A stretch of DNA of 64,000 bases, from the NCBI GenBank assembly GCA_000002445.1, contig CP000069.1, forward strand, positions 96,001 through 160,000, read 5' to 3'. Position numbers and translations under genes: made by a program. This document shows positions 25,351 to 57,900 of the stretch, piece after piece (position 1 is the stretch's first letter; the number at the start of each line of letters is the position of its first letter). Below the pieces are notes generated by a model. It was given only the letters and a program-made list of their open reading frames with translations, did no database searches and was not told the origin of the DNA. The DNA comes from Trypanosoma brucei (Eukaryota).

Positions 25351-28300
25351 CTAATGTAACGACGGAAGCGGACACCCAAAGTGGCCTTCTCTGAAATGTG
25401 AACCAACGAATGGAACAATTATGATTGAGCCCTCTTCAGTACTCACAGAAGCTTCACTGCTTCCACTTTGAGCGCTACGGTCAGCGACACGCCCAACCTT
25501 AACTGCAATGCGACGCACCACTTCCTCACAGTAGGCGTCATCCCACTCGAATGCGGCTTCACGGGGAAGAGGCACACGCCAACGCTCACAAAGCGACGCC
25601 AGAAGATTCCCCCGTTGCGCTGCTTTAAAAGTTCGGAAAACAGACTGCAGTGAGTTCAATATCGATTGTGCTGATTCACTCAGCTCGGCACGTGAAGAAC
25701 TGTGGTCGCTTGTGGAGGTTGTCGTGCCATCCTCGTCTTCATCAAAGAATTCGCGATCCAGCCGTAATGCAGCAAAGTTGCGGCCAGGCACGGCATTCAA
25801 CTGGTACATTTCCACAGGATCATTCACGCCACGAAGTGCAACATCACCAAGTGCAGTGACATCAATTTGCTCACGCTCCTCAGCTGACAGTGACATGTAA
25901 ACCTCATGCGTCATCAGCACCTGACCACCATTTGCTACACTCTCTGTCCTTTCTGCCATGTTTGGAGTCCGCCCATAGTAGTCATATCCCTTCGTCACTT
26001 CATCGTGTCGGATGTCGCACAACCCGGTGTGGATTCCAACACGTACACGCAGGCCATTCCACAAACGACTGTACACTTTGAGGTCCAACCGCGCAGTTGG
26101 CGGTGTGTACTTCTCGTCCTCCTCCGCACGCTGCTGCTCCAACTGCTGGTAAGAATCATCAATCGCATTTGTTCCCCAGTCATGATGCAAGAAACACAGC
26201 TGTAGTTCCTGTGCGAGTTGGACGGCAGCGAAAGGACTCTTACTCGCTATCATGAACGAATCCCCAACAGTTTTGACTTCGTAGCACTTATACCTCCCAA
26301 TCAGTGAACGAATCAAATAGTGATGTGTCGCAACGGCATCAGGCATCAGCTCAGGGTGTGCAGCCCACAACGCAGTGCTGCTCTCAATGTCAGTAAATAT
26401 TAGTGTCACGGGGTCAGTTTGTTCCTTGGGTGCAAGATTGTTATCACGGGCATTCCGGTGTGTTGCTAATATAACAACCACAAGAACCGTAACAAGCGGC
26501 ACCAACATTACGACGAAGCCAACTGCAATAGCGGCAATTTGCTCAGTCATCTGTTGGATCCATCTCGGTTCATCATAGGTCACTCACAGTGTGGCAGACG
26601 ACAGCGCAGAGGACACAAAAGGGTTTAGAACATGTGACATCGACCATACAAAAATATGCATCCCACCACCGTTGACAACAGTGCTTCGCCTCAAGTCAAG
26701 TTTCGTTCGTACACTTGTCTCCAAACGACCCATACATTGCAGGACACTTCCCATTGCGTATGCGATGGCAGACCCAAGTAGTGACAATGGCTTCCACTTC
26801 GACTCATTCTGCACGATCTTGCGGAACTCACGTACTGTTTTGGACTCCGTGATCTTATCCCTCCGATGTGACAGATTCGTTGCGAATAGCAAGGGGTTAG
26901 AAAATGGCTTTTCATGGAAGGCACTCACGAGTTCGCCGTGGATTGGTGCATCATCGAAGAATAGGACAAAGACGTGCACATTACGGTGTTTGTTAGGGTG
27001 AAAGAGGATTATGGGGATATTATATGGGATAAGACCTACAACCAATACCTGACATGCAGTTGACAGCTTGTCTCTCAAATTAGGACCTTCACCACTCGCA
27101 ACAAAGAAGCTTAGTGATGTGTTAAAGTTGTCAAGTGTTTTTGCAACATATTCCTAATTCCTCTCGTATCACCACCACGACACACAATGACATGCATTCT
27201 TCCTGCACCATTTTGTATAATATGCTCAACTATCATAAATAACTGCTGCTCATTTGTTGGTAACAGGTGGATCACATTCCTTCTGGGGTTACTCGGTTGT
27301 GATGTGAGTATTATAGGATCGATGAATGCCATACCCTTCGTCCGCAGTAACGAATTATCCACGACACCAAACACAGCAGTTACAACTCGTTTCTCAACAT
27401 CATTATACAGAGTTGCAGAAGCTTCGTAAGATTTCGAGGATAGTCAGTGTAAAAAGAAACCATCAGAGTGACCCAGTTGACCTTTGCCAACAACATGAGG
27501 GACACCATCGTATACCATCTATGCAGCACGCAGTGCCTTTGGGTCATCGGTTATATTAAACATGACCCCACTCAATGGGCCATACAACTGTGGCAGGTCT
27601 CGATAACAGCGAGATGAACCAAGGGTTAATATAGCTTCCTTCATAGGGTGTAGATGGAGATCCTTTTCCACCTTCTTCATGCACATCACACTCCCACCTT
27701 GGTTACGTAAACACGATACACCCCGCTCTCCCGCCATATTACGGCACTCACCACCAAAGTCACCAACCACAATATTATCAATTGGATAACGACGTTTATT
27801 GTACAGTGATTTCATAAATACACCCCTGCTAGTTAGCTATTCGTGACAACTCAGTGCCTGTTTCAATACCTCTCCAGCAACCCATCTGTTCAATGTCAGC
27901 TCAGCTTCAGCGTCTTGCTCGGTGAAGTTATTTTCGTTAATATCCCACCTTGTGCGCTTATAGTTATTACCATTAACCTTTAACAACATAGTCATATCAT
28001 CCCTGAAACGCCTGACAGCTTTGTATGTGTCACCCTTCGTAATTAGGTCAGCCCCAGTTATTATTATTTTATCAGCCACAAACTCGTCTCTGCCCAATTT
28101 ATATGCCCACTTGTTCTTGACGGCGTGTTGGAGTGCAGAGGGTGTATGAATAAATATTCGCCTCTCGTCCTGTGGTCATATAATCATTTCATGGGGAATC
28201 TCTTCATATCAGGGATTGGAGAACCAAATACAATCACTCCCTGAGGTCCAGTATCGGCAACCTTATTCCACTCCGCACTGAAGCTACTGTTATCCGATTC

Positions 28301-30012: not shown

Positions 30013-33000
30013 TTAACAGGTACTACCAACACTTTCCAGGTCAATCAAATCAGTGGTGCAGCGTCGTCCCTCAACATAGGAAAAGTTTGAAGATGAAGCA
30101 ACCGTTGCAACAGTAGCTCCTCCAGGTGAAAATAGACTTCCACCCCTTTCCAATGATGTCACACTGCTGGAGGAGCTCCTCGTTCCAAAATCCATAACAC
30201 AACCCACCTTTGCAGCAATCCGACGGGTAACACAGCGACAACTGGCTTCATTCCAAGCATCCACCCCTGGGGGCTTCTTAACATGCCAACGCTCACAAAA
30301 TGTTGCAAGCATCTTCTGTCGCTGGATAACTGGAAATGCGCCAATGAGGGCATCAATGCAACCAGCAACCTGTTGAGCGGTGGCAGTTAAACCACACTCA
30401 TTAAAGCTCGACTCACTAGCGCTACTACCTGTTCCAACATCTTCTTCATCCTCGATTTCACGTTCCAGCCGTAATGCAGCAAAGTTGCGGCCAGGCACGG
30501 CATTCAACTGGTACATTTCCACAGGATCGGGCACACCACGTAGCGGCACATCACCAAGTGCAGTGACATCAATTTGCTCACGCTCCTCAGCTGACAGTGA
30601 CATGTAAACCTCATGCGTCATCAGCACCTGACCACCATTTGCTACACTCTCTGTCCTTGCTGCCATGTTTGGAGTCCGCCCATAGTAGTCATATCCCTTC
30701 GTCACTTCATCGTGTCGGATGTCGCACAACCCGGTGTGGATTCCAACACGTACACGCAGGCCATTCCACAAACGACTGTACACTTTAAGGTCCAACCGCG
30801 CAGTTGGCGGTGTGTACTTCTCGTCCTCCTCCGCACGCTGCTGCTCAAACTGCTGGTAAGAATCATCAACTGCATTTGTTCCCCAGTCATGTTGCAAGAA
30901 ACACAGCTGTAATTCCTGTGCGAGTTGGACGGCAGCGAAAGGACTCTTACTCGCTATCATGAACGAATCCCCAACAGTTTTGACTTCGTAGCACTTATAC
31001 CTCCCAATCAGTGAACGAATCAAATAGTGATGTGCCGCAACGGCATCGGGCATCAGCTCAGGGTGTGCAGCCCACAACGCAGTGCTGCTCTCAATGTCAG
31101 TAAATATTAGTGTCACAGGGTCCGTTGGCTCCTTGGGTGCAAGATTGTTATCACGAGCATTCCGCAGGGTGATGCGTAGGAGCACACCAAGGGCAATAAA
31201 AGGTATCAAGCCGGCTATACACCCGATACCTATGCCGGCTATCTGTGACCCTGTGAGACGACTCCCTCCTGAAATGATATACCCCATAGACGGTGTCATG
31301 CCGCGTTGCAATATGGGCACACTTGAATTCAGCACACGCGCCATCGACCATACAGAAATGTTTGTGGCTCCAAAGTTTGAGGCACACTCATTTGCCGAAA
31401 CACTCGTACCAGAAACACATTCCACATCACTGAAGGGTCCAAATCGCATGTCATCCACTTTGATGTTGGACTCCGTGTAAATGCGGTCTGCCAGCAGCTC
31501 TGCATTCACTTTCTTCATATTCGGGAGAATCACTTGAAGCAGCCGAGTGGTAACAAAACCTAAGAACGTTAGTGGATCCCAATGCGATTCATTCACAATG
31601 CGATGGAAACTCGCAACCACATCTGATTTCGTGTCCTTCTCCGCCCAGTGTGGGAAACTCGTCGCGAATAGGAGCCGCTCTGAGCTAGCAATAGACTCTT
31701 TACTCGCATTAAACGCAGCTACAAACTCATCGTAGTACATTGCAAGGTCATTGAATGGAATGAATACACGTGCCCTGCGGTGGGTCTGAAGGTGCCGCGC
31801 AACTGCAGCAACGTCAGTGAGAGTGAGTCCAATAGTAAACACATCTCTATTACCCGAGAGATATGACGATATCGGGTCACCATCACCAAGTGTCTTGCTG
31901 GAATCAAGCGGCACACCAAACGTGTCCAATGACTTGTACAGCAGGCTACTGATCTCCACTACTTGCTCACTACGTATGAGTGCATTTACTCCTCTGGAAG
32001 AAGTGTTGGAGAGATACACAGCAAGCACATAAAGTTGCTGCGCAAGGACAGGCAGTAAGTGTATTACGTTTCTCCTAAACAATTTCATGCGGGGTCGAAG
32101 TGTCATAGGACTGATGAACACTAAATCTTTTCGGTCCAGAAGCCCTCCAGGCATGATACCAAATACTGCAGATACATCCCTGTTATCCTGTACTTGCTCA
32201 AGGGATTGCGTCACATTCTCTGAAGATACTGTTAGGGGATGGAAAAATATTCTATTGTCAATATTCTCCGCTTCCTTGCCATGAACCTCGGCACCAAGGA
32301 ACCACTTCCTGCTCGCACGTAATGCAATTTTATTATCTGCGAGAAGCAAAAAGAGGCCACTCAATGGCGCACCCACATGTACATTGGCACTCGAGCACTC
32401 TGATACACCCCACGTTAGATGTCCTTCCCACAAAGGCGCTGGTCGGAAGCCATCCATTATACTCTTCATATATACCATACTGCCACCTTGATTGCATTCA
32501 CACATGGCACCCTGTAATGCAACGGCCTCATTGCACTCACCACCAAAGTCACCAACCACAAGGTCATCAATCACGTAGCGACGCTGCTTGTACAGAGATT
32601 CCCTGAATGATGTACGGTTCGTCAGCTGTGGGGCGTTATTCAGAGCTTCGAAGAGAACTTCTCCCGCAAGCCACCCATACACCATCATCTCACCTGCGTT
32701 GTCGTCCTCAAGGTAGTGATCGGGTTTCTTAAAAAAGTTCCAGTCATTGTTTGTCCTGAGGTAGTTGTCCATGTCATGCTGGAAGCGCTGAATCAGTGAG
32801 AACCGAGTATCGTTAGCGAGCGGCACTGTTCCAGTTGTGATTAGCTGTCCAGGAGTGAATGTACGATTAGCTAACGCCAATGCCTCACGCCACATCTTGA
32901 TCAAAAAATTTTGCTGTAGTGAAGTAGAAAGAAGATACGCATTGGCAGTGCGGTTGTCCTGTGCTACCTTCTTGATGAACCACTTTGCTGTATTACCCAG

Positions 33001-33819
33001 GGATGAAAACAGCAATATAGCCTGTGGGCGCGTAGCAACAAATTGTCTCCACCTGGTGTTCAAATCATCCTCAGAGATATTTTGATTCTCACTCTCCTTC
33101 ACAACGAACATTCCACACAGCTCGCGACCCATCATTTCCAATATCTGCACAGTAAACTCATACGGTCCCATACTGGCGGTGCTGCTCTTCACGTGCATCA
33201 TACCTATTCGTGGGACACGGAGGTAAACAACAGCATAACGAATGAGGGCGAGGAGTTCAGCATTGGGTTCGACACTTATGAAATAAAGGTGAGGGTTCCA
33301 ACCACGGACCTCACTGGAGTACGCAACGGGAGCGAGGGCAACAAGATCATGTTCCTTCAGTTTATCACTGACCCACGAGACGTGATTAGTACCCAGCGGC
33401 CCGAATACAACTAATAACTTGTCTTCACTTTGATTCATTCCCTGCTGAAATATGTCCTCGATTGTCGCATTGGGTGATGGGGGACGGATGACAGATATTG
33501 TCGCATTAGAGCCCGTCTTCCAGCTGTGGGCACTCAGTGATGCGTCAAAACCGGCATTAAGATCGTTAACTTCATCGTCAGAATATTCCGGATTATACAT
33601 CATGGATAGCACTTTTACCGTCACATTACTCGCTTCCGCGCACACAGGTGGCATCCACATGAGTAGCAAAGGCAACAAGTGTAGCAGTGACATAGCAGTA
33701 ATGACAGGTGAGTGCTTGTACTTGCTGTAACGCCTTGCAGGGCTCCTTGCGGTAAGGTTCCGCCTGCAGTTTCCATGAGGGTACACACATCCTCTTCCAC
33801 CACCTTCCTGCCAGCACAT
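30013..33819 (-). CDS. GRESAG4: Receptor-type adenylate cyclase, full length (copy 1, 1268 aa from first ATG)
   Basis: Single 3.8 kb ORF. First ATG is at 33819 (MCWQEGGG...), and a further in-frame ATG lies directly before the hydrophobic leader (MSLLHLLPLLLMWMPPVCAEA). The protein has a large extracellular domain of about 820 aa with many N-glycosylation sequons. One TM follows (IAGIGIGCIAGLIPFIALGVLL), then the class III cyclase domain (PTDPVTLIFTDIESSTALW, YEVKTVGDSFMIAS, RVGIHTGLCDI, GYDYYGRTPNMAARTESVANGGQVL), and a C-terminal tail of about 150 aa. This architecture and length are those of trypanosome ESAG4/GRESAG4 cyclases. Confidence 0.9.
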   Translation of the reverse strand: MCWQEGGGRGCVYPHGNCRRNLTARSPARRYSKYKHSPVITAMSLLHLLPLLLMWMPPVCAEASNVTVKVLSMMYNPEYSDDEVNDLNAGFDASLSAHSWKTGSNATISVIRPPSPNATIEDIFQQGMNQSEDKLLVVFGPLGTNHVSWVSDKLKEHDLVALAPVAYSSEVRGWNPHLYFISVEPNAELLALIRYAVVYLRVPRIGMMHVKSSTASMGPYEFTVQILEMMGRELCGMFVVKESENQNISEDDLNTRWRQFVATRPQAILLFSSLGNTAKWFIKKVAQDNRTANAYLLSTSLQQNFLIKMWREALALANRTFTPGQLITTGTVPLANDTRFSLIQRFQHDMDNYLRTNNDWNFFKKPDHYLEDDNAGEMMVYGWLAGEVLFEALNNAPQLTNRTSFRESLYKQRRYVIDDLVVGDFGGECNEAVALQGAMCECNQGGSMVYMKSIMDGFRPAPLWEGHLTWGVSECSSANVHVGAPLSGLFLLLADNKIALRASRKWFLGAEVHGKEAENIDNRIFFHPLTVSSENVTQSLEQVQDNRDVSAVFGIMPGGLLDRKDLVFISPMTLRPRMKLFRRNVIHLLPVLAQQLYVLAVYLSNTSSRGVNALIRSEQVVEISSLLYKSLDTFGVPLDSSKTLGDGDPISSYLSGNRDVFTIGLTLTDVAAVARHLQTHRRARVFIPFNDLAMYYDEFVAAFNASKESIASSERLLFATSFPHWAEKDTKSDVVASFHRIVNESHWDPLTFLGFVTTRLLQVILPNMKKVNAELLADRIYTESNIKVDDMRFGPFSDVECVSGTSVSANECASNFGATNISVWSMARVLNSSVPILQRGMTPSMGYIISGGSRLTGSQIAGIGIGCIAGLIPFIALGVLLRITLRNARDNNLAPKEPTDPVTLIFTDIESSTALWAAHPELMPDAVAAHHYLIRSLIGRYKCYEVKTVGDSFMIASKSPFAAVQLAQELQLCFLQHDWGTNAVDDSYQQFEQQRAEEDEKYTPPTARLDLKVYSRLWNGLRVRVGIHTGLCDIRHDEVTKGYDYYGRTPNMAARTESVANGGQVLMTHEVYMSLSAEEREQIDVTALGDVPLRGVPDPVEMYQLNAVPGRNFAALRLEREIEDEEDVGTGSSASESSFNECGLTATAQQVAGCIDALIGAFPVIQRQKMLATFCERWHVKKPPGVDAWNEASCRCVTRRIAAKVGCVMDFGTRSSSSSVTSLERGGSLFSPGGATVATVASSSNFSYVEGRRCTTDLIDLESVGSTC

Positions 33820-33861
33820 ATTTTCGGGAATGTGTGACACTTTTCGTGTGTGAAATCTTAT

Positions 33862-36735: not shown

Positions 36736-39700
36736 CTAATGTAACGACGGAAGCGGACACCCAAAGTGGCCTTCTCTGAAATGTGAACCAACGAATGGAA
36801 CAATTATGATTGAGCCCTCTTCAGTACTCACAGAAGCTTCACTGCTCCCACTTTGAGCGCTACGGTTAGCGACACGCCCAACCTTAACTGCAATGCGACG
36901 CACCACTTCCTCACAGTAGGCGTCATCCCACTCGAATGCAGCTTCACGGGGAAGAGGCACACGCCAATGCTCACAAAGCGACGCCAGAAGATTCCCCCGT
37001 TGCGCTGCTTTAAAAGTTCGGAAAACAGACTGCAGTGAGTTCAATATCGATTGTGCTGATTCACTCAGCTCAGCACGTGAAGAACTGTGGTCGCTTGTGG
37101 AGGTTGTCGTGCCATCCTCGTCTTCAAAGAATTCGCGATCCAGCCGTAATGCAGCAAAGTTGCGGCCAGGCACGGCATTCAACTGGTACATTTCCACAGG
37201 ATCATTCACGCCGCGAAGTGCAACATCACCAAGTGCAGTGACATCAATTTGCTCACGCTCCTCAGCTGACAGTGACATGTAAACCTCATGCGTCATCAGC
37301 ACCTGACCACCATTTGCTACACTCTCTGTCCTTTCTGCCATGTTTGGAGTCCGCCCATAGTAGTCATATCCCTTCGTCACTTCATCGTGTCGGATGTCGC
37401 ACAACCCGGTGTGGATTCCAACACGTACACGCAGGCCATTCCACAAACGACTGTACACTTTAAGGTCCAACCGCGCAGTTGGCGGTGTGTACTTCTCGTC
37501 CTCCTCCGCACGCTGCTGCTCCAACTGCTGGTAAGAATCATCAACTGCATTTGTTCCCCAGTCATGATGCAAGAAACACAGCTGTAATTCCTGTGCGAGT
37601 TGGACGGCAGCGAAAGGACTCTTACTCGCTATCATGAACGAATCCCCAACAGTTTTGACTTCGTAGCACTTATACCTCGCAATCAGTGAACGAATCAAAT
37701 AGTGATGTGCCGCAACGGCATCGGGCATCAGTTCAGGGTGTGCAGCCCACAACGCAGTGCTGCTCTCAATGTCAGTAAATATTAGTGTCACGGGGTCAGT
37801 TTGTTCCTTGGGTGCAAGATTGTTATCACGGGCATTCCGGTGTGTTGCTAATATAACAACCACAAGAACCGTAACAAGCGGCACCAACATTACGACGAAG
37901 CCAACTGCAATAGCGGCAATTTGCTCAGTCATCTGTTGGATCCATCTCGGTTCATCATAGGTCACTGACGGTGTTGCAGACGACAGCGCAGAGGACACAA
38001 AAGGGTTTAGAACATGTGACATCGACCATACAAAAATATGCATCGCACCACAGTTGACAACAGTGCTTCGCCTCAAGTCAAGTTTCGTTCGTACACTTGT
38101 CTCCAAACGACCCATACATTGCAGGACACTTCCCATTGCGTATGCGATGGCAGACCCAAGTAGTGACAACGGTTTCCACTTCGACTCATTCTGCACGATC
38201 TTGCGGAACTCACGTACTGTTTTGGACTCCGTGATCTTATCCCTCCGATGTGACAGATTCGTTGCGAATAGCAAGGGGTTAGAAAATGGCTTTTCATGGA
38301 AGGCATTCACGAGTTCGCCGTGGATTGGTGCATCATCGAAGAATAGGACAAAGACGTGCGCATTACGGTGTTTGTTAGGGTGAAAGAGGATTATGGGGAT
38401 ATTATATGGGATAAGACCTACAACCAATACCTGACATGCAGTTGACAGCTTGTCTCTCAAATTAGGACCTTCACCACTCGCAACAAAGAAGCTTAGTGAT
38501 GTGTTAAAGTTGTCAAGTGTTTTTGCAACATATTCCTAATTCCTCTCGTATCACCACCACGACACACAATGACATGCATTCTTCCTGCACCATTTTGTAT
38601 AATATGCTCAACTATCATAAATAACTGCTGCTCATTTGTTGGTAACAGGTGGATCACATTCCTTCTGGGGTTACTCGGTTGTGATGTGAGTATTATAGGA
38701 TCGATGAATGCCATACCCTTCGTCCGCAGTAACGAATTATCCACGACACCAAGCACAGCAGTTACAACTCGTTTCTCAACATCATTATACAGAGTTGCAC
38801 AAGTTTCGTAAGATTTCGAGGATAGTCAGTGTAAAAAGAAACCATCAGAGTGACCCAGTTGACCTTTGCCAACAACATGAGGGACACCATCGTATACCAT
38901 CTATGCAGCACGCAGTGCCTTTGGGTCATCGGTTATATTAAACATGACCCCACTCAATGGGCCATACAACTGTGGCAGGTCTCGATAACAGCGAGATGAA
39001 CCAAGGGTTAATATAGCTTCCTTCATAGGGTGTAGATGGAGATCCTTTTCCACCTTCTTCATGCACATCACACTCCCACCTTGGTTACGTAAACACGATA
39101 CACCCCGCTCTCCCGCCATATTACGGCACTCACCACCAAAGTCACCAACCACAATATTATCAATTGGATAACGACGTTTATTGTACAGTGATTTCATAAA
39201 TACACCCCTGCTAGTTAGCTATTCGTGACAACTCAGTGCCTGTTTCAATACCTCTTCAGCAACCCATCTGTTCAATGTCAGCTCAGCTTCAGCGTCTTGC
39301 TCGGTGAAGTTATTTTCGTTAATATCCCACCTTGTGCGCTTATAGTTATTACCATTAACCTTTAACAACATAGTCATATCATCCCTGAAACGCCTGACAG
39401 CTTTGTATGTGTCACCCTTCGTAATTAGGTCAGCCCCAGTTATTATTATTTTATCAGCCACAAACTCGTCTCTACCCAATTTATATGCCCACTTGTTCTT
39501 GATGGCGTGTTGGAGTGCAGAGGGTGTATGAATAAATATTCGCCTCTTGTCCTGTGGTCATATAATCATTTCATGGGGAATCTCTTCATATCAGGGATTG
39601 GAGAACCAAATACAATCATTCCCTGAGGTCCAGTATCGGCAACCTTATTCCACTCCGCACTGAAGCTACTGTTATCCGATTCCTTACCAATTTGACTCTT

Positions 39701-40310
39701 CAATGCAAAAAAATAACAACTAAACAACTTGCGATTCATCCGTGTTGCCAACTACGCAGCAAGCTTATACTCATCATCACCATAAGAAACATCTTTCAAA
39801 TACATGAAATCCAGTCGGTGTGACCGTAACTGAGTGATAGCATAACGGAAAAGAGCAAGCATCTCAACGGCGAGTGATGCTTCCAGGAGTCATAAATTGG
39901 GATTCCAACTGTGTACCCTACTGAATCCTGTGAAGGGTAAGAAATCAACTACACATTCTTTTCATTGAAATATTTGGTTAAGTTGAGAGTATTTTTGTCA
40001 CCCACAGGTTCCAGTATAATGGCAAGCTCATCACCGTAATTGGTTGTACAGATGGCGTATCCAAAGTCATCCATAGACGGAACATGTGCAACTGCCACAG
40101 ACACACGGAAGCGACTTCCCGTTGGTAATAGATGCGTTGAAACCTGCAATAATAGGATCACATACCTTTGCTGAAATCTTGTCACTGTATAACATGTTGT
40201 ATACCCTTACCCATATTAATCCATTTGCAAGCTATACTTCAGCCAGCAGCTGTAGTAACATAGAAAAACACCACGTAAGTGACTACGCCATCTCTAGCAT
40301 GTAATTCACG
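36736..40310 (-). pseudogene. GRESAG4: Divergent receptor-type adenylate cyclase paralogue, disrupted in the extracellular part (pseudogene copy C); retains a 574-codon open frame over the TM and catalytic domain
   Basis: 36736-38460 is open for 574 codons (TTG at 38460; first ATG about 38136 giving about 466 aa). It encodes the distal extracellular region, the TM and a complete catalytic domain with no internal stop. Upstream collinear pieces are in other frames or interrupted (38493-38756, 38901-39197, 39219-39479, 39566-39751, 39949-40185). The same disruption pattern is seen in copies A and E. Confidence 0.8.
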
Positions 40311-41384
40311 CATGGAGGTAACCGTGATACTAGTAACTCAACGTAATTCAACTTTCAAACTACAGGACAAAAACGGCATAATAACAAAGTATTGGTACAA
40401 GATTAATAGACTGCATATGTATGTGTATATGTAAAAGCGTGGGAAAGGGAACTACTGTAGTGGATAACATTACACAAACCATAACAGCGAGAAAGTAGTT
40501 CAACACACATTCCCCCATACACCCACATATCATTCATGTATCCGATACAAAAACATAAAACATCACTAGGCATAAGGGTAAATGTGTAGATAGAACATTA
40601 CAGTATCATAAACTGGATTGCCATTAACAAAAACACAGCACACTAACAGTCACAGTTAACACTCAAACTGTAAATTTTAACTCACAACATCACGGCAGAC
40701 ATTGCTCAGTTTCATATTCCTTGACTGTCTAGGAGTAAAAGAGAGTGTGCGAGAGAATATGAGGAAAGTTTCAGCGACCATAGAGAAATATAAAGGAAGT
40801 TATACACATGTATCAGATATTGCAAATAGTTAGATGCAGCAAGGTGATTAAGAGATACCTTACAAGCCAGCATCTCCGAATGAAAAAAAAAGATTAGGGT
40901 AGACGCGAGGGATAAGCACAGGAGGTCACTTTTACTTCGCTATAGCCTCCGCTTCATGGGCATCACCTTATTATCAAACATATTTTTAAATGCAAGGACA
41001 CAGCTCCTAACAACACATTAGAGGTGGAGCGCCTCACATGACTACCGCCCACACGGACGGCAATATAAATTCAAATAAGATATTATTTAGAAGAAGTTGA
41101 GCATCAATGGCGGCGTGGGTGAACACATCCCTCACTACGTTAAACAGAAAGTTAACGACCCCCGAATATTGTAATCAAAAAATGGTGTGCCCATTTCAGA
41201 AGTAAAATGCATCCCGTACACAAGGATATTTAAAGCATCCAGCATATGAAGAAAATATTGCATGCGCAAAAAGTTGGGACGCAAAATGATAAAAATCGTT
41301 TATACAAGCCTGCTATGAAAACACAAAATGAATTATGTAAACATTATTATCCATTTACAACAACAAAACATACATACATCAATG

Positions 41385-44300
41385 TCATGAAGGATATTGG
41401 CTGGCACTCTCAACACTTTCCAGGTCAATCAAGTGCAGAGTGCAGCGTCGTCCCTCAACATAGGAAAAGTTTGAAGATGAAGCAACCGTTGCAACAGTAG
41501 CTCCTCCAGGTGAAAAGAGACTTCCACCCCTTTCCAATGATGTCACACTGCTGGAAGTATTCCTCGTTCCAAAATCCATAACACAACCCACCTTTGCAGC
41601 AATCCGACGGGTAACACAGCGACAACTGGCTTCATTCCAAGCATCCACCCCTGGGGGCTTCTTAACATGCCAACGCTCACAAAATGTTGCAAGCATCTTC
41701 TGTCGCTGGATAACTGGAAATGCGCCAATGAGAGCATCAATGCAACCAGCAACCTGTTGAGCGGTGGCAGTTAAACCACACTCATTAAAGCTCGACTCAC
41801 TAGCGCTACTACCTGTTCCAACATCTTCTTCATCCTCGATTTCACGTTCCAGCCGTAATGCAGCAAAGTTGCGGCCAGGCACGGCATTCAACTGGTACAT
41901 TTCCACAGGATCGGGCACACCACGTAGCGGCACATCACCAAGTGCAGTGACATCAATTTGCTCACGCTCCTCAGCTGAAAGTGACAGGTATGTTGAGCCT
42001 GTCATCAGCACCTGACCACCATTTGCTACACTCTCTGTCCTTGCTGCCATGTTTGGGGTCCGCCCATAGTAGTCATATCCCTTCGTCACTTCATCGTGTC
42101 GGATGTCGCACAACCCGGTGTGGATTCCAACACGTACACGCAGGCCATTCCACAAACGACTGTACACTTTAAGGTCCAACCGCGCAGTTGGCGGTGTGTA
42201 CTTCTCGTCCTCCTCCGCACGCTGCTGCTCAAACTGCTGGTAAGAATCATCAACTGCATTTGTTCCCCAGTCATGTTGCAAGAAACACAGCTGTAATTCC
42301 TGTGCGAGTTGGACGGCAGCGAAAGGACTCTTACTCGCTATCATGAACGAATCCCCAACAGTTTTGACTTCGTAGCACTTATACCTCCCAATCAGTGAAC
42401 GAATCAAATAGTGATGTGTCGCAACGGCATCGGGCATCAGCTCAGGGTGTGCAGCCCACAACGCAGTGCTGCTCTCAATGTCAGTAAATATTAGTGTCAC
42501 AGGGTCCGTTGGCTCCTTGGGCGCAAGATTGTTATCACGAGCATTCCGCAGGGTGATGCGTAGGAGCACACCAAGGGCAATAAAAGGTATCAAGCCGGCT
42601 ATACACCCGATACCTATGCCGGCTATCTGTGACCCTGTGAGACGACTCCCTCCTGAAATGATATACCCCATAGACGGTGTCATGCCGCGTTGCAATATGG
42701 GCACACTTGAATTCAGCACACGCGCCATCGACCATACAGAAATGTTTGTGGCTCCAAAGTTTGAGGCACACTCATTTGCCGAAACACTCGTACCAGAAAC
42801 ACATTCCACATCATTGAAGGGTCCAAATCGCATGTCATCCACTTTGATGTTGGACTCCGTGTAAATGCGGTCTGCCAGCAGCTCTGCATTCACTTTCTTC
42901 ATATTCGGGAGAATCACTTGAAGCAGCCGAGTGGTAACAAAACCTAAGAACGTTAGTGGATCCCAATGCGATTCATTCACAATGCGATGGAAACTCGCAA
43001 CCACATCTGATTTCGTGTCCTTCTCCGCCCAGTGTGGAAAACTCGTCGCGAATAGGAGCCGCTCTGAGCTAGCAATAGACTCTTTACTCGCATTAAACGC
43101 AGCTACAAACTCATCGTAGTACATTGCAAGGTCATTGAATGGAATGAATACACGTGCCCTGCGGTGTGCCTGAAGGTGCCGCGCAACTGCAGCAACGTCA
43201 GTGAGAGTGAGTCCAATAGTAAACACATCTCCATCACCCGAGAGATATGACGCTATCGGGTCACCATCACCAAGTGTCTTGCTGGAATCAAGCGGCACAC
43301 CAAACGTGTCCAATGACTTGTGCAGCAGGCTACTGATCTCCCCTGCTTGCTCACTACGTATGAGTGCATTTACTCCTCTGGAAGAAGTGTTGGAGAGATA
43401 CACAGCAAGCACATAAAGTTGCTGCGCAAGGACAGGCAGTAAGTGTATTACGTTTCTCCTAAACAATTTCATGCGGGGCCGAAGTGTCATAGGACTGATG
43501 AACACTAAATCTTTTCGATCCAGAAGCCCTCCAGGCATGATACCAAATACTGCAGATACATCCCTGTTATCCTGTACTTGCTCAAGGGATTGCGTCACAT
43601 TCTCTGAAGATACTGTTAGGGGATGGAAAAATATTCTATTGTCAATATTCTCCGCTTCCTTGCCATGAACCTCGGCACCAAGGAACCACTTCCTGCTCGC
43701 ACGTAATGCAATTTTATTATCTGCGAGAAGCAAAAAGAGGCCACTCAATGGCGCACCCACATGTACATTGGCACTCGAGCACTCTGATACACCCCACGTT
43801 AGATGTCCTTCCCACAAAGGCGCTGGTCGGAAGCCATCCATTATACTCTTCATATATACCATACTGCCACCTTGATTGCAATTACACATGGCACCCTGTA
43901 ATGCAACGGCCTCATTGCACTCACCACCAAAGTCACCAACCACAAGGTCATCAATCACGTAGCGACGCTGCTCGTACAGAGATTCCATGAATGACGTACG
44001 GTTCGTCAGCTGTGGAGCGTTATTCAGAGCCTGGAAGAGAACTTCTCCTGCAAGCCACCCATACACCATCATCTCACCTGCGTTGTCGTCCTCAAGGTAG
44101 TGATCGGGTTTCGCAAAGCCCTTCCAGTCACTTTTTGTATCCAGGTAGTTGTCCATGTCATGCTGGAAGTGCTGAATCAGTGAGAACCGAATGTCGCTGG
44201 CGAGCGGCACTGTTCCAGTTGTGATCAGCTGTCCAGGAGTAAATGTACGATTAGCTAACGCCAATGCCTCACGCCACATGTTGATAAGAGGACCCTGCTG

Positions 44301-45206
44301 TAGTGAAGTAGAAAGAAGATACGCATTGGCAGTGCGGTTGTCCTGTGCTACCTTCTTGATGAACCACGTGATGCTGCCATCCACCAGGGATGAAAACAGC
44401 AATATAGCCTGTGGGCGCGTAGCAACAAATTGTCTCCACCTGGTGTTCAAATCATCCTCAGAGATATTTTGATTCTCACTATCCTTCACAACGAACATTC
44501 CACACAACTCGCGACCCATCATTTCCAATATCTGCAGAGTAAACTCATACGGTCCCATACTGGCGGTGCTGCTCTTCACGTGCATCATACCTATTCGTGG
44601 GACACGGAGGTAAACAACAGCATAACGAATGAGGGCGAGGAGTTCAGCATTGGGTTCGACACTTATGAAATAAAGGTGAGGGTTCCAACCACGGACCTCA
44701 CTGGAGTGCGCAACGGGAGCGAGGGCAACAAGATCATTTTCCCTTAGTTTATTTCGGACATTTGCGACACGGTCACTACCCAGGGGCCCGAACACAACTA
44801 ATAACTTGTCTTTGCTTTGATCCATTCCCTCCTGAATCATGCCATCAACTGTCGCATTGGGTGATGAGGGACGGATGACAGATATTGTCGCATTAGAGCC
44901 CGTCTTCCAGCTGTGGGCACTCAGTGATGCGTCAAAGCCGGCATTCAGGGCGTTAATTTCACCTTCGGTATAAGCTGGATTATGCATCATGGATAGCACT
45001 TTTACCGTCACATTACCGTTTTCTGCGCACACAGGTGGCATCCACATGAGTAGCAAAGGCAACAAGTGTAGCAGTGATACAGCAGTAATGACAGGTGAGT
45101 GCTTGTACTTGCTGTAACGCCTTGCAGGGCTCCTTGCGGTAAGGTTCCGCCTGCAGTTTCCATGAGGGTACACACATCCTCTTCCACCACCTTCCTGCCA
45201 GCACAT
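41385..45206 (-). CDS. GRESAG4: Receptor-type adenylate cyclase, full length (copy 2, 1273 aa from first ATG)
   Basis: Same architecture as copy 1, with about 93-95% aa identity. Differences are clustered in the N-terminal part of the extracellular domain and in short patches of the catalytic domain (MTGSTYLS versus MTHEVYMS). The C-terminal tail is ...LHLIDLESVESASQYPS. The codon before the hydrophobic leader is GTG (Val), not ATG. Confidence 0.9.
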   Translation of the reverse strand: MCWQEGGGRGCVYPHGNCRRNLTARSPARRYSKYKHSPVITAVSLLHLLPLLLMWMPPVCAENGNVTVKVLSMMHNPAYTEGEINALNAGFDASLSAHSWKTGSNATISVIRPSSPNATVDGMIQEGMDQSKDKLLVVFGPLGSDRVANVRNKLRENDLVALAPVAHSSEVRGWNPHLYFISVEPNAELLALIRYAVVYLRVPRIGMMHVKSSTASMGPYEFTLQILEMMGRELCGMFVVKDSENQNISEDDLNTRWRQFVATRPQAILLFSSLVDGSITWFIKKVAQDNRTANAYLLSTSLQQGPLINMWREALALANRTFTPGQLITTGTVPLASDIRFSLIQHFQHDMDNYLDTKSDWKGFAKPDHYLEDDNAGEMMVYGWLAGEVLFQALNNAPQLTNRTSFMESLYEQRRYVIDDLVVGDFGGECNEAVALQGAMCNCNQGGSMVYMKSIMDGFRPAPLWEGHLTWGVSECSSANVHVGAPLSGLFLLLADNKIALRASRKWFLGAEVHGKEAENIDNRIFFHPLTVSSENVTQSLEQVQDNRDVSAVFGIMPGGLLDRKDLVFISPMTLRPRMKLFRRNVIHLLPVLAQQLYVLAVYLSNTSSRGVNALIRSEQAGEISSLLHKSLDTFGVPLDSSKTLGDGDPIASYLSGDGDVFTIGLTLTDVAAVARHLQAHRRARVFIPFNDLAMYYDEFVAAFNASKESIASSERLLFATSFPHWAEKDTKSDVVASFHRIVNESHWDPLTFLGFVTTRLLQVILPNMKKVNAELLADRIYTESNIKVDDMRFGPFNDVECVSGTSVSANECASNFGATNISVWSMARVLNSSVPILQRGMTPSMGYIISGGSRLTGSQIAGIGIGCIAGLIPFIALGVLLRITLRNARDNNLAPKEPTDPVTLIFTDIESSTALWAAHPELMPDAVATHHYLIRSLIGRYKCYEVKTVGDSFMIASKSPFAAVQLAQELQLCFLQHDWGTNAVDDSYQQFEQQRAEEDEKYTPPTARLDLKVYSRLWNGLRVRVGIHTGLCDIRHDEVTKGYDYYGRTPNMAARTESVANGGQVLMTGSTYLSLSAEEREQIDVTALGDVPLRGVPDPVEMYQLNAVPGRNFAALRLEREIEDEEDVGTGSSASESSFNECGLTATAQQVAGCIDALIGAFPVIQRQKMLATFCERWHVKKPPGVDAWNEASCRCVTRRIAAKVGCVMDFGTRNTSSSVTSLERGGSLFSPGGATVATVASSSNFSYVEGRRCTLHLIDLESVESASQYPS

Positions 45207-45249
45207 ATTTTCGGGAATGTGTGACACTTTTCGTGTGTGAAATCTTATG

Positions 45250-54934: not shown

Positions 54935-54978
54935 ACATAAGATTTCACACACGAAAAGTGTCACACATTACCGAAAAT

Positions 54979-57900
54979 ATGAGCTGGCAGGAAGGTGGTG
55001 GAAGAGGATGTGTGTACCCTCATGGAAACTGCAGGCGGAACCTTACCGCAAGGAGCCCTGCAAGGCGTTACAGCAAGTACAAGCACTCACCTGTCATTAC
55101 TGCTGTATCACTGCTACACTTGTTGCCTTTGCTACTCATGTGGATGCCACCTGTGTGCGCGGAAGCGAGTACTGTGACGGTAAATGTGCTATCCATGATG
55201 CATAATCCAGCTTATACCGAAGGTGAAATTAACGCCATTAATGCCGGCTTTGACGCATCACTGAGTGCCCACAGCCGGAAGACGGGCTCTAATGCGACAA
55301 TATCTGTCATCCGTCACCCATCACCCAATGCGACAGTTGAGGAGATATTTCAGCATGGAATGAAACAAAGTGAAGGGAAGTTATTAGTTGTATTCGGGCC
55401 CCTGGGTAGTGACCGTGTCGCAAATGTCCGTGATAAACTGAAGGAACATGATCTTGTTGCCCTCGCTCCCGTTGCGCACTCCAGTGAGGTCCGTGGTTGG
55501 AACCCTCACCTCTATTTCATAAGTGTCGAACCCAATGCTGAACTCCTCGCCCTCATTCGTTATGCTGTTGTTTACCTCCGTGTCCCACGAATAGGTATGA
55601 TGCACGTGAAGAGCAGCACCGCCAGTATGGGACCGTATGAGTTTACTGTGCAGATATTGGAAATGATGGGTCGCGAGCTGTGTGGAATGTTCGTTGTGAA
55701 GGATAGTGAGAATCAAAATATCTCTGAGGATGATTTGAACGTCAGGTGGAGACAATTTGTTGCTACGCGCCCACAGGCTATATTGCTGTTTTCATCCCTG
55801 GGTAATACAGCAAAGTGGTTCATCAAGAAGGTAGCACAGGACAACCGCACTGCCAATGCGTATCTTCTTTCTACTTCACTACAGCAAAATTTTTTGATCA
55901 AGATGTGGCGTGAGGCATTGGCGTTAGCTAATCGTACATTCACTCCTGGACAGCTAATCACAACTGGAACAGTGCCGCTCGCCAGCGACATTCGGTTCTC
56001 ACTGATTCAGCACTTCCAGCATGACATGGACATCTACCTCAGGACAAACAATGACTGGAAGGGCTTTGCGAAACCCGATCACTACCTTGAGGACGACGGT
56101 TTAGGTGAGATGATGGTGTATGGGTGGCTTGCGGGAGAAGTTCTCTTCGAAGCTCTGAATAACGCTCCACAGCTGACGAACCGTAAATCATTCAGGGAAT
56201 CTCTGTACAAGCAGCGTCGCTACGTGATTGATGACCTTGTGGTTGGTGACTTTGGTGGTGAGTGCAATGAGGCCGTTGCATTACAGGGTGCCATGTGTGA
56301 ATGCAATCAAGGTGGCAGTATGGTATATATGAAGAGTATAATGGATGGCTTCCGACCAGCGCCTTTGTGGGAAGGACATCTAACGTGGGGTGTATCAGAG
56401 TGCTCGAGTGCCAATGTACATGTGGGTGCGCCATTGAGTGGCCTCTTTTTGCTTCTCGCAGATAATGAAATTGCATTACGTGCGAGCAGGAAGTGGTTTC
56501 TTGGTGCCGAGGTTCATGGCAAGGAAGCGGAGAATATTGACAATAGAATATTTTTCCATCCCCTAACAGTATCTTCAGAGAATGTGACGCAATCCCTTGA
56601 GCAAGTACAGGACAACAGGGATGTATCTGCAGTATTTGGTATCATGCCTGGAGGGCTTCTGGATCGAAAAGATTTAGTGTTCATCAGTCCTATGACACTT
56701 CGACCCCGCATGAAATTGTTTAGGAGAAACGTAATACACTTACTGCCTGTCCTTGCGCAGCAACTTTATGTGCTTGCTGTGTATCTCTCCAACACTTCTT
56801 CCAGAGGAGTAAATGCACTCATACGTAGTGAGCAAGCAGGGGAGATCAGTAGCCTGCTGTACAAGTCATTGGACACGTTTGGTGTGCCGCTTGATTCCAG
56901 CAAGACACTTGGTGATGGTGACCCGATATCGTCATATCTCTCGGGTGATGGAGATGTGTTTACTATTGGACTCACTCTCACTGACGTTGCTGCAGTTGCG
57001 CGGCACCTTCAGGCACACCGCAGGGCACGTGTATTCATTCCATTCAATGACCTTGCAATGTACTACGATGAGTTTGTAGCTGCGTTTAATGCGAGTAAAG
57101 AGTCTATTGCTAGCTCAGAGCGGCTCCTATTCGCGACGAGTTTTCCACACTGGGCGGAGAAGGACACGAAATCAGATGTGGTTGCGAGTTTCCATCGCAT
57201 TGTGAATGAATCGCATTGGGATCCACTAACGTTCTTAGGTTTTGTTACCACTCGGCTGCTTCAAGTGATTCTCCCGAATATGAAGAAAGTGAATGCAGAG
57301 CTGCTGGCAGACCGCATTTACACGGAGTCCAACATCAAAGTGGATGACATGCGATTTGGACCCTTCAATGATGTGGAATGTGTTTCTGGTACGAGTGTTT
57401 CGGCAAATGAGTGTGCCTCAAACTTTGGAGCCACAAACATTTCTGTATGGTCGATGGCGCGTGTGCTGAATTCAAGTGTGCCCATATTGCAACGCGGCAT
57501 GACACCGTCTATGGGGTTTTCCATTGCAGGAGGGAGTCGTCTCACAGGGTCACAGATAGCCGGCATAGGTATCGGGTGTATAGCCGGCTTGATACCTTTT
57601 ATTGCCCTTGGTGTGCTCCTACGCATCACCCTGCGGAATGCTCGTGATAACAATCTTGCGCCCAAGGAGCCAACGGACCCTGTGACACTAATATTTACTG
57701 ACATTGAGAGCAGCACTGCGTTGTGGGCTGCACACCCTGAGCTGATGCCCGATGCCGTTGCGACACATCACTATTTGATTCGTTCACTGATTGCGAGGTA
57801 TAAGTGCTACGAAGTCAAAACTGTAGGGGATTCGTTCATGATAGCGAGTAAGAGTCCTTTCGCTGCCGTCCAACTCGCACAGGAATTACAGCTGTGTTTC

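What the first reader, a model, noticed from the sequence alone, without database searches (positions are those of the whole stretch)
36736..38460. One 'pseudogene' copy retains an uninterrupted 574-codon frame encoding TM helix plus complete catalytic domain but no extracellular sensor domain
In copy C the frame 36736-38460 is open throughout (first ATG about 38136, giving a protein of about 466 aa). It contains the TM segment and every class III catalytic motif, including the metal-binding Asp residues in FTDIESST and TVGDSF and the N...R pair in NMAERTES. The sister copies are each broken by a single stop at different places. Copy A has a TGA just before the TM (SSATL*VTYDE, about 26584). 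Copy E has a TAG after the catalytic domain (63132). So the upstream frameshifts are shared and ancestral, while the distal stops are independent and recent. Trypanosome cyclases act as dimers. An N-terminally truncated, sensor-less catalytic subunit could therefore be a regulatory or dominant-negative partner if it is translated at all. It lacks an obvious cleavable signal peptide, so the TM would have to act as a signal anchor.
Basis: partly seen in the sequence, partly recalled or inferred. Interest (0 to 1): 0.6.

Follow-up and report, generated by a model that had tools for sequence, protein, structure and literature searches.

The report
Decaying cyclase gene relic, conversion-patched
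The long open frame is real, but it is most likely the tail end of a dead adenylate cyclase gene in the Trypanosoma brucei reference genome, whose catalytic part stays intact-looking because neighbouring working copies keep overwriting it by gene conversion.

Summary
36736-38460 (-) is an open 574-codon frame (599 codons stop to stop), with its first ATG at 38136 (466 aa). It contains one TM helix and a class III cyclase domain. Sister copy A has a TGA at 26584-26586 and copy E a TAG at 63129-63131.

The window is T. b. brucei TREU927 chromosome 6. An 11.4-kb unit (relic plus intact GRESAG4) occurs three times.

Only the catalytic 727 bp (37113-37839) is 94-97% DNA-identical to the intact neighbours. 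The flanking parts are 26-35% identical at protein level, so the catalytic part is a gene-conversion graft.

Among the copies, the pre-TM and TM parts of the open frame evolve neutrally, like the dead upstream segments. Nonsense mutations have arisen at about the neutral rate. Copies A and C carry Glu at a position that is Ala, Ser or Thr in 87 of 87 homologues (NMAERTES).

A T. b. equiperdum copy has a 51-bp deletion removing the KTVGD metal-binding site, apparent frameshifts before the TM helix, and clustered conversion tracts, one of them in the tail.

No relic product is annotated as a protein, and there is no convincing internal splice-acceptor signal. A functional sensor-less subunit is not excluded, but nothing here supports it. 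Truncated cyclase genes of this kind are already described in this species.

The parts
36736..38460 (-). The 574-codon open frame of relic copy C, stop codon included. The stop-to-stop open stretch extends up to 38535.
38134..38136 (-). First in-frame ATG (codon 109), which would start the hypothetical 466-aa product. One out-of-frame ATG at 38189 lies between it and the only candidate internal AG.
37933..38535 (-). Remnant of the membrane-proximal PBP-like ectodomain (Pfam PF25493 positions 174-300). It has a roughly 33-residue deletion relative to intact homologues and evolves neutrally among the copies (5 syn : 12 non).
37846..37920 (-). Single transmembrane helix IAAIAVGFVVMLVPLVTVLVVVILA (ORF codons 181-205). 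An ATG (codon 177) lies at 37930-37932 just upstream.
   Evidence: copy E has M177I, G187I and M191I
37113..37839 (-). Catalytic-domain patch, 94-97% DNA-identical to the intact neighbours B, D and F with sharp boundaries. This is a gene-conversion graft.
37333..37335 (-). Codon 376 GAA (Glu) inside the N-M-A-x-R transition-state motif. The position is Ala, Ser or Thr in 87 of 87 homologues and Ala in copy E and all intact copies.
36739..37140 (-). C-terminal tail (codons 441-574). It is only about 30% identical to the neighbours' tails. The copies show 6 syn : 3 non differences, and the equiperdum copy has a conversion tract at codons 470-476.
38508..39557 (-). Dead middle segment of the relic (homologous to residues 295-642 of the intact cyclase), in a different frame. 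It has 3 in-frame stops (39219-39221, 38901-38903, 38826-38828) shared by A, C, E and the T. b. equiperdum copy.
39533..40282 (-). Dead 5' segment of the relic (residues about 51-310), in a third frame, with about 10 in-frame stops, 8 of them shared by all copies.
40729..40893 (-). Two polypyrimidine tracts each followed closely by AG (40893-40878 with AG at 40874; 40745-40731 with AG at 40729). This is the likely ancestral trans-splice acceptor region upstream of the relic.
   Evidence: consensus scan only; usage is inferred
38377..38390 (-). The only internal polypyrimidine tract (14 nt, TCCTCTTTCACCCT). The next AG is 86 nt downstream at 38290, so this is a weak candidate for an internal acceptor.
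25351..27078 (-). Sister relic copy A, homologous frame, broken by TGA at 26584-26586. A 399-aa ORF from the codon-177 ATG (26550) remains.
61719..63131 (+). Sister relic copy E, homologous frame, ended by TAG at 63129-63131 (codon 470). It also carries M245T at a family-invariant Met.
41385..45206 (-). Intact GRESAG4 cyclase D (XP_845157, 1273 aa). Its catalytic segment 41822-42548 lies 4.7 kb from the relic's, in direct orientation, making it a conversion partner.
30013..33819 (-). Intact GRESAG4 cyclase B (XP_845156, 1268 aa). It shares the codon 389-395 tract (MTHEV.M) with relics A and C.
54979..58797 (+). Intact GRESAG4 cyclase F (XP_845158, 1272 aa) in the inverted third unit. It shares the ITGST.L tract with relic E.

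Best explanation
Copy C is the least-decayed of three recent duplicates of an old, dead receptor-type adenylate cyclase (GRESAG4-family) gene on T. b. brucei TREU927 chromosome 6. The ectodomain-coding two-thirds was destroyed by two frame changes and about 13 stops before the 11.4-kb unit (relic plus intact cyclase) was triplicated. The 3' third still reads open for three reasons. (a) Its central 727 bp, the catalytic domain, has been repeatedly overwritten by gene conversion from intact paralogues, mainly the neighbours 4.7-6.7 kb away and occasionally family members elsewhere. This resets decay and imports already-selected sequence. (b) The remaining 366 flanking codons are few enough to be stop-free by modest luck (P about 0.04-0.06 at the stop density of the adjacent dead segment). 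(c) Copy C has simply not yet been hit, whereas A, E and the T. b. equiperdum copy have. Shown here: the mosaic structure, the shared and private lesions, the neutral substitution pattern in the pre-TM and TM parts, and the conversion tracts. Inferred: the relic is transcribed within its polycistronic unit and trans-spliced at the polyY/AG sites near 40.7-40.9 kb, giving an RNA whose roughly 2.6-2.7-kb leader with about 80 upstream ATGs would prevent meaningful translation of the 466-aa frame.
For: The three relics are 96.5-97.8% identical over 5.2-5.9 kb and sit in an 11.4-kb unit present twice in tandem and once inverted. Against intact D, the relic aligns in three frames with about 9, 3 and 0 stops. 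The upstream stops are shared by A, C, E and the T. b. equiperdum copy. DNA identity to B, D and F is 95-100% from codon ~208 to ~440 and 60-72% just outside. At protein level the catalytic part is 94-97% identical to the neighbours, against 26-35% for the pre-TM, TM and tail parts. The family norm for the catalytic domain is 83-87% (PMC6027212). At codons 389-395, A and C match B, while E matches D and F, so at least two exchanges have occurred since the triplication. Syn:non events among the copies are 6:17 and 5:12 in the dead segments, 5:12 in ORF codons 1-176 and 0:4 in the TM region, all neutral. About 30 substitutions lie outside the patch, and 3.1-3.9% of random substitutions create a stop, so about 1 stop is expected and 2 are observed. 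A376E, M245T and P419N fall at positions where 0 of 87 homologues carry those residues. The T. b. equiperdum relic (L001) has a 51-bp microhomology-flanked deletion of codons 261-277 (ARYKCYEVKTVGDSFMI) and 1-bp deletions before the TM helix. Its 38 private substitutions all fall in the catalytic and tail regions, mostly in clusters at codons 311-323 (GRESAG4.1-like), 413-419 and 470-476, with none in the first 696 bp (P=8e-9). Its dead upstream part is 99.3% identical to C. The GenBank protein accessions AAZ11597, 11598, 11599 and 11600 are the consecutive intact cyclases, leaving no protein between them. No relic product is in a 15-billion-protein collection, and no gene is called at the relic in T. 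b. equiperdum. Recombination in GRESAG4 arrays is documented (PHI p<0.001; PMC2854126). Truncated receptor cyclases make up 21% of the T. b. brucei repertoire (PMC7719234).
Against: The catalytic patch (21 syn: 21 non, P about 0.0003) and the tail (6:3, P about 0.01) show fewer non-synonymous differences than neutrality predicts. I attribute this to imported, pre-selected sequence, but for the tail the only direct evidence of conversion is the single equiperdum tract. All three indels downstream of the TM helix in the four copies are multiples of three (3, 3 and 51 bp), whereas the upstream ones are 1, 2 or 7 bp. All four copies keep the TM-to-catalytic stretch free of stops. The stop-free flanks are marginally unlikely (P about 0.05) given the decay of the adjacent segment. 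No expression data could be consulted.
Confidence: 0.77

Rival explanations
1. One reading: the frame, from ATG 38136 or from the ATG at codon 177 just before the TM helix, is translated into a signal-anchored, sensor-less cyclase subunit. This subunit pairs with full-length cyclases as a constitutive, regulatory or dominant-negative partner and is under weak or redundant selection.
For: There is an excess of synonymous differences in the catalytic and tail regions. Only in-frame indels occur downstream of the TM helix in four copies. The TM-to-catalytic stretch is stop-free in A, C, E and the equiperdum copy. TM flank charges of -2 and +1 favour N-out/C-in, so the catalytic domain would face the cytosol. 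The catalytic domains must dimerise to be active, and an engineered catalytically dead ESAG4 is dominant-negative (PMC6027212). Receptor cyclases lacking an ectodomain are listed among annotated family members (PMC7719234).
Against: The N-terminal and TM parts evolve neutrally, and copy E has lost Met177. The copies would need different start codons. Glu376 sits in the N..R motif, and M245T and P419N fall at invariant positions. The equiperdum copy deletes the metal-binding Asp and Lys strand. Two of three copies are truncated, at the neutral rate. The only internal polyY is weak, with AG 86 nt away and an out-of-frame ATG before 38136, and the natural leader has about 80 upstream ATGs. No protein is annotated or on record. 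Isolated catalytic domains dimerise poorly without the N-terminal part (PMC6027212). The synonymous excess is explained by demonstrable conversion.
Confidence: 0.12
2. The relics persist because they serve as a sequence reservoir. They donate tracts to the intact cyclases by gene conversion and so diversify the catalytic or juxtamembrane regions of the functional genes, as with mosaic formation from VSG pseudogenes.
For: Intact B is 100% identical to relics A and C across codons ~380-400 (MTHEV.M), whereas intact D and F differ. This allows a relic-to-intact transfer. Durante et al. suggest that receptor-cyclase pseudogenes may contribute to functional diversity (PMC7719234).
Against: The direction of transfer is unresolved, because MTH..YM is also the state in GRESAG4.1 and 4.3, so B may simply retain the ancestral state. 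Exchange is confined to the already highly conserved catalytic domain, where diversification has no obvious benefit. The divergent flanks (26-35% identity) cannot recombine with the neighbours. Persistence needs no selection, since the relic is carried along inside a recently triplicated unit.
Confidence: 0.07
3. Assembly artefact: the intact-looking catalytic patch, or the open frame itself, results from mis-assembly or collapse of near-identical repeats in the reference.
For: The region is a triplicated 11.4-kb repeat with about 97% identity, which is the kind of sequence that gets mis-assembled.
Against: All three relic copies show the same mosaic, each with its own private differences. An independently sequenced and assembled T. 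b. equiperdum genome shows the same relic architecture, the same 12 upstream stops and the same patch.
Confidence: 0.03

Closest known systems
T. brucei receptor-type adenylate cyclases (ESAG4/GRESAG4 family; catalytic domain structures GRESAG4.1 1FX2 and GRESAG4.3 1FX4)
   Same: The relic has a PF00211 catalytic domain about 90% identical to 1FX2 (E=4e-139). It has the same layout of single TM helix, catalytic domain and roughly 130-aa C-terminal tail, and the same PBP-like ectodomain homology in its dead upstream segments.
   Different: There is no intact signal peptide or ectodomain: two frame changes and about 13 stops. The membrane-proximal ectodomain has a roughly 33-residue deletion. 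Glu replaces the invariant small residue in the N-x-x-A-R motif. The tail is only about 30% identical to the neighbours' tails, against 55-78% reported within the family.
Truncated or pseudogenised receptor cyclases catalogued in T. b. brucei (Durante et al. 2020, PMC7719234)
   Same: That study reports that 21% of T. b. brucei receptor cyclases are truncated, that the ectodomain and signal peptide 'are not always present', and that pseudogenes lacking the PBP or the cyclase domain are prevalent. This relic fits that description.
   Different: That work did not, in the text I could read, describe conversion grafting of the catalytic domain from adjacent intact genes as the reason such fragments look catalytically complete. 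I could not check whether this specific locus is in their tables, because no supplements are held.
Engineered dominant-negative ESAG4 (Salmon et al. 2012, as summarised in PMC6027212)
   Same: It is a cyclase subunit with a compromised catalytic site that poisons dimers.
   Different: The engineered protein is full length, with the ectodomain thought to drive dimerisation, and it is overexpressed. The relic product would lack the ectodomain, and there is no evidence that it is made.
Recombining tandem arrays and pseudogene mosaics in T. brucei (GRESAG4 arrays in Jackson et al. 2010, PMC2854126; VSG pseudogene mosaics, from my own knowledge)
   Same: There is segmental gene conversion between paralogues in arrays, with sharp tract boundaries and exchange between dead and live copies.
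   Different: Here the clearest flow is from live genes into the dead copy. This cosmetically repairs the relic rather than creating new expressed variants.
Oxygen-sensing cyclase pseudogenes of Leishmania (Viannia) (PMC7719234)
   Same: They are described as pseudogenes that 'invariably retain the AC domains' while the sensor (globin) domain is degraded. The sensor-dead, cyclase-retained pattern is the same.
   Different: It is a different cyclase class and genus, and no conversion mechanism is proposed there.

Membership tests
Class III adenylyl cyclase catalytic domain (trypanosomal GRESAG4 type) | Significant match to the PF00211 profile, above the gathering score | tested here: met
   153.9 bits against a cut-off of 21.9, ORF residues 218-428. 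E=4e-139 to 1FX2.
Class III adenylyl cyclase catalytic domain (trypanosomal GRESAG4 type) | Two metal-binding Asp residues (FTDIESST, KTVGDSF) and the substrate Lys | tested here: met
   Present in copies A, C and E. Absent from the T. b. equiperdum copy, where codons 261-277 are deleted.
Class III adenylyl cyclase catalytic domain (trypanosomal GRESAG4 type) | Transition-state Asn...Arg motif in its conserved N-x-x-(A/S/T)-R context | tested here: inconclusive
   Asn and Arg are present, but the residue before Arg is Glu in copies A and C. It is Ala 78, Ser 6, Thr 3 and Glu 0 among 87 aligned homologues. The effect on catalysis is unknown.
Class III adenylyl cyclase catalytic domain (trypanosomal GRESAG4 type) | Cyclase activity | not testable with these tools
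   Requires expression of the 466-aa product and an enzyme assay.
Full-length receptor-type adenylate cyclase | Signal peptide, two PBP/VFT-like ectodomains, TM helix and catalytic domain in one reading frame | tested here: not met
   The ectodomain homology is spread over two other frames with about 13 stops. Only Pfam PF25493 positions 174-300 remain in frame, and there is no N-terminal hydrophobic segment.
Pseudogene (unitary relic of a duplicated gene) | Disabling lesions relative to intact homologues, shared by descent among copies | tested here: met
Pseudogene (unitary relic of a duplicated gene) | Neutral substitution pattern (dN/dS about 1) in the remaining frame | tested here: inconclusive
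   Neutral in ORF codons 1-207 (5:12 and 0:4). Not neutral in the catalytic (21:21) or tail (6:3) regions, where conversion confounds the test.
Pseudogene (unitary relic of a duplicated gene) | Not annotated or recorded as a protein | tested here: met
   Consecutive accessions AAZ11597-11600 are the intact genes. None of five relic ORF variants is in the collection, and no gene is called at the relic in T. b. equiperdum.
Functional truncated or dominant-negative cyclase subunit | Reading frame conserved in paralogous copies and in sister subspecies | tested here: not met
   Copy A is broken at codon 165 and copy E at codon 470. The equiperdum copy has 1-bp deletions (possibly long-read assembly errors) and a 17-codon catalytic deletion.
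Functional truncated or dominant-negative cyclase subunit | A trans-splice acceptor (polyY followed by AG) shortly upstream of the start codon | tested here: inconclusive
   There is only a 14-nt polyY with AG 86 nt downstream and an intervening out-of-frame ATG. The strong sites lie 2.6-2.7 kb upstream. This was a consensus scan, not mapping data.
Functional truncated or dominant-negative cyclase subunit | Evidence of translation (ribosome footprints or peptides) | not testable with these tools
   The ribosome-profiling supplements are held only in truncated form and contained no rows for this region.

The most novel reading that the evidence does not exclude
The TM-catalytic-tail frame, from the codon-177 or codon-109 ATG, is translated from an internally trans-spliced mRNA. 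It would yield a family of membrane-anchored, sensor-less cyclase subunits with impaired active sites (Glu376 in A and C, Thr245 in E, loss of the metal site in T. b. equiperdum). These would act as natural dominant-negative or scaffolding partners that damp signalling by the adjacent full-length cyclases. In-frame-only indels and the synonymous excess downstream of the TM helix would then be the footprint of selection for a folded but inactive partner.
Probability: 0.07. Interest if true: 0.65.

Novelty: already known. Interest (0 to 1): 0.2.

Why it matters
For genome scanning, this is a caution. In recombining multigene families, a pseudogene can display a long open frame and a 'complete' catalytic domain simply because live neighbours keep overwriting that segment. 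Motif completeness and low dN/dS in such a segment are therefore not evidence of function.

For trypanosome biology, it gives a concrete, well-resolved example of exchange between intact and dead adenylate cyclase copies in the chromosome 6 array. That matters for interpreting the roughly 20% of 'truncated' cyclases in the repertoire, and for read and peptide mapping, because the catalytic patch is nearly identical to expressed genes.

If the unlikely functional reading were true, it would reveal natural dominant-negative regulation of a virulence-linked signalling family.

Tried and rejected
1. Exact-sequence look-ups of the relic products (574 aa with L or M start, 466 aa, A-399 aa, E-362 aa) and of intact genes in the gene-position index found nothing for TREU927. 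Only the T. b. equiperdum orthologue gave a locus.

2. I first guessed the locus was the TbAT1 region of chromosome 5, next to Tb927.5.285b/.320/.330. I rejected this because the published TbAT1 neighbours are an epimerase, a VSG-related gene and others, Tb927.5.310 is ISG-like, and the transporter is an exact match to XP_845152 on the 1,618,915-bp chromosome.

3. I guessed from the numbering that relic C is Tb927.6.290. The literature search found no text on it. Tb927.6.270 is listed once as an 'adenylate cyclase gene', so the gene IDs remain unconfirmed.

4. The ribosome-profiling supplements of PMC4210626 are truncated and held no rows for these genes. The Durante supplements are not held. 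Bieger & Essen 2001 is not held.

5. I looked for a close intact paralogue of the relic's non-catalytic flanks. Nothing better than about 50% overall turned up among 5.8e9 clustered proteins (a listing that showed nothing longer than about 1,000 aa) or among 1.8e9 representatives clustered at 50% identity. The donors of the non-local tracts therefore could not be identified.

6. The whole-ORF dN/dS of 0.25-0.43 looked like selection at first. Region-by-region counts with the dead segments as an internal control showed that the signal is confined to the conversion-affected parts.

7. The Rfam scan of the window found nothing.
Full report
**What is there.**
The frame 36736-38460 on the minus strand is open for 574 codons. 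From stop to stop it runs 38535-36739, which is 599 codons. The first ATG is codon 109 at 38136, giving 466 aa. Pfam finds the cyclase catalytic domain (PF00211, 153.9 bits) and only the last third of the membrane-proximal PBP-like ectodomain. The catalytic part matches the T. brucei GRESAG4.1 crystal chain 1FX2 at E=4e-139. There is one strong TM helix (466-aa residues 73-97) and no N-terminal hydrophobic signal. The flank charges are -2 on the N side and +1 on the C side, which is compatible with an N-out/C-in signal anchor. Copy A carries TGA at 26584-26586 (C-codon 165). Copy E carries TAG at 63129-63131 (C-codon 470), made by a C>T change plus a 3-bp deletion.

**Where it is.**
The transporter ORF at 15910-17298 is 100% identical to XP_845152 of T. 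b. brucei TREU927, on a 1,618,915-bp chromosome. The three intact cyclases in the window are XP_845156, XP_845157 and XP_845158, so this is the reference genome, chromosome 6. Their GenBank protein accessions, AAZ11597, 11598, 11599 and 11600, are consecutive. No protein is therefore annotated between them, which is where relics C and E lie. None of five possible relic products is in a 15-billion-protein collection.

**Architecture.**
An 11.4-kb unit consisting of a relic plus an intact GRESAG4 gene occurs twice in tandem (22695-34112 and 34080-45499, 97.5% identical). It occurs a third time inverted, from 54619 to the end of the window. The relic aligns to a full-length cyclase in three different frames:
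- residues ~51-310, with about 10 stops;
- residues 295-642, with 3 stops;
- residues 637-1240, with none.

Nearly all the upstream stops are shared by A, C and E, and all 12 are also present in a T. b. equiperdum copy. Copies C and E have also acquired private frameshifts upstream.

**The key finding: the catalytic domain is a graft.**
Only 37113-37839 matches the intact neighbours at the DNA level, at 94-97% identity. In 60-nt windows, identity is 95-100% from codon ~208 to ~440 and falls abruptly to 60-72% outside that range. At protein level the catalytic part is 94-97% identical to B, D and F. The pre-TM, TM and tail parts are only 26-35% identical to them, no closer than to T. congolense or T. 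cruzi cyclases. The family-wide norm for the catalytic domain is 83-87% (PMC6027212).

Alleles are shared in a mosaic pattern. At codons 389-395, relics A and C and intact B read MTHEV.M, while relic E and intact D and F read ITGST.L. This requires at least two exchanges between relic and intact genes since the triplication. Recombination within GRESAG4 arrays is documented (PMC2854126).

**Is the frame under selection?**
The whole-ORF dN/dS of 0.25-0.43 looks like constraint, so I counted events by region and used the dead segments as an internal control.

| Region | syn : non | Reading |
|---|---|---|
| Dead 5' segment | 6 : 17 | neutral |
| Dead middle segment | 5 : 12 | neutral |
| ORF codons 1-176 | 5 : 12 | neutral |
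| TM region (codons 177-207) | 0 : 4 | neutral |
| Catalytic patch | 21 : 21 | fewer non-synonymous than neutral, P ~0.0003 |
| Tail | 6 : 3 | fewer non-synonymous than neutral, P ~0.01 |

Only the catalytic patch and the tail depart from neutrality. In the patch, many differences are alleles that also occur in the intact genes, and copy E's private changes cluster (6 within codons 292-309), which points to imported tracts.

**The sister-subspecies copy settles the point.**
The T. b. equiperdum relic lies in locus L001, and no gene is called there. Its dead upstream part is 99.3% identical to C, but the ORF region is only 96.9% identical. All 38 of its private substitutions fall in the catalytic and tail regions. 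Most are clustered at codons 311-323 (a GRESAG4.1-like YREFEEQ..GECEY tract not found in the local genes), 413-419 and 470-476. None falls in the first 696 bp (P=8e-9). Conversion from paralogues outside the array therefore also reaches the tail. Imported, pre-selected sequence explains the synonymous excess.

**Signs of decay.**
- Outside the patch, about 30 substitutions separate the copies. Between 3.1% and 3.9% of random substitutions in this frame create a stop, so about 1 stop is expected and 2 are observed.
- Copies A and C have Glu at the position before the catalytic Arg (NMAERTES). Among 87 aligned homologues this position is Ala 78, Ser 6, Thr 3 and never Glu.
- Copy E has Thr at a Met that is invariant in 87 of 87 homologues.
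- All three copies have Asn where none of the 87 homologues does.
- The equiperdum copy has lost codons 261-277 (ARYKCYEVKTVGDSFMI), which include the second metal-binding Asp and the substrate Lys. The deletion is 51 bp and flanked by microhomology.
- The equiperdum copy also shows 1-bp deletions before the TM helix. Its neighbouring 3.8-kb intact gene has no frameshift, so these are probably real, although long-read error cannot be excluded.

**Could it be translated?**
On the gene strand, good polypyrimidine/AG signals lie at 40893-40874 and 40745-40729, upstream of the relic's ancestral start. From there to the ATG at 38136 there are 80-83 upstream ATGs. Inside the relic, the only polyY is 14 nt long (38390-38377). 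Its next AG is 86 nt downstream, and an out-of-frame ATG at 38189 precedes 38136. These are consensus scans, not mapping data. I could not access usable spliced-leader or ribosome-profiling tables.

**What remains unexplained.**
- The flanks of the graft (366 codons) are stop-free, although the adjacent dead segment has 3 stops in 350 codons (P about 0.04-0.06).
- All three indels downstream of the TM helix are multiples of three (3, 3 and 51 bp), whereas the upstream ones are 1, 2 or 7 bp.
- The tail's 6:3 ratio rests on only 9 events.

These observations keep the functional hypothesis alive at low probability. If anything were selected, it would be a TM-catalytic-tail product with a crippled active site.

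**Comparison with what is known.**
The element is a member of the GRESAG4 family by descent, but it fails the full-length receptor architecture test. It fits the class already described by Durante et al. 2020. They report that 21% of T. b. brucei receptor cyclases are truncated, that the ectodomain and signal peptide are not always present, and that pseudogenes lacking the PBP or cyclase domains are prevalent. They also note Leishmania cyclase pseudogenes that retain the cyclase domain while the sensor decays. The dominant-negative precedent, engineered ESAG4, is a full-length protein. Isolated catalytic domains dimerise poorly without the N-terminal part.

**Verdict.**
This is an ordinary relic in a recombining gene array, already covered in kind by the literature and lying in the reference genome. 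The most useful result is the demonstration that conversion from live neighbours makes the dead copy look catalytically complete. Interest 0.2.

Noticed in passing
window 22695-34112, 34080-45499 and 54619-64000: An 11.4-kb unit (relic plus intact cyclase) is present twice in tandem and once inverted, at about 97% identity. The two arms face away from each other across 45.5-54.6 kb, which looks like a divergent strand-switch region. GC skew changes sign there and again near 22 kb.
   Followed up: partly
window 30438-31164 (intact gene B, catalytic segment; relic codon numbering ~380-400): Intact gene B is 100% identical to relics A and C over codons ~380-400 (MTHEV.M), while intact D and F carry ITGST.L. 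Sequence may therefore have moved from a dead copy into a live gene, or B may retain the ancestral state. The direction is unresolved.
   Followed up: partly
L001 (T. b. equiperdum CM010677.1:79047-102865), about 16.7-18.6 kb: The sister-subspecies relic carries a 51-bp microhomology-flanked deletion that removes the KTVGD metal-binding strand. It also has a GRESAG4.1-like tract (YREFEEQCTEGECEY) absent from the local genes, and six 1-bp deletions that may be real or may be long-read assembly errors.
   Followed up: partly
protein cluster of intact gene F: A 'Schistosoma mansoni' protein (XP_018644084.1, 894 aa, on a 5.3-kb contig) clusters at 90% identity or more with these T. brucei cyclases. 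This is almost certainly trypanosome DNA contaminating that flatworm assembly.
   Followed up: no
window 775-1568 (-): Two adjacent short ORFs match leucine-rich-repeat profiles (LRR_4, E=1e-9 and 4e-6). They look like fragments of a broken LRR protein gene, as is common near T. brucei chromosome ends.
   Followed up: no
window 15910-17298 (+) and 17351-17428: There is an intact equilibrative nucleoside transporter (XP_845152, 'adenosine transporter 1, putative'). It is only 56% identical to a T. brucei protein named 'adenosine transporter 1r', so it is a paralogue. A 14-bp tandem repeat (5.8 copies) follows directly after its stop codon.
   Followed up: partly
window 22725-23234 (+) and 34110-34745 (+): ORFs of 169 and 211 aa lie on the opposite strand in the spacer downstream of relics A and C, and recur with the repeat unit. 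They have no Pfam match and are probably chance frames.
   Followed up: no
window 8843-10359 (+): Three consecutive 133-135-aa ORFs lie in a locally GC-rich stretch (0.51) with no Pfam match. They could be another broken gene.
   Followed up: no
window 63053-63131 and C 37049-37053: Copy E's stop-creating lesion (a C>T change plus a 3-bp deletion at codons 470-471) sits exactly where the T. b. equiperdum copy begins a conversion tract (codons 470-476). It may be a scar from a recombination junction rather than two independent mutations.
   Followed up: no
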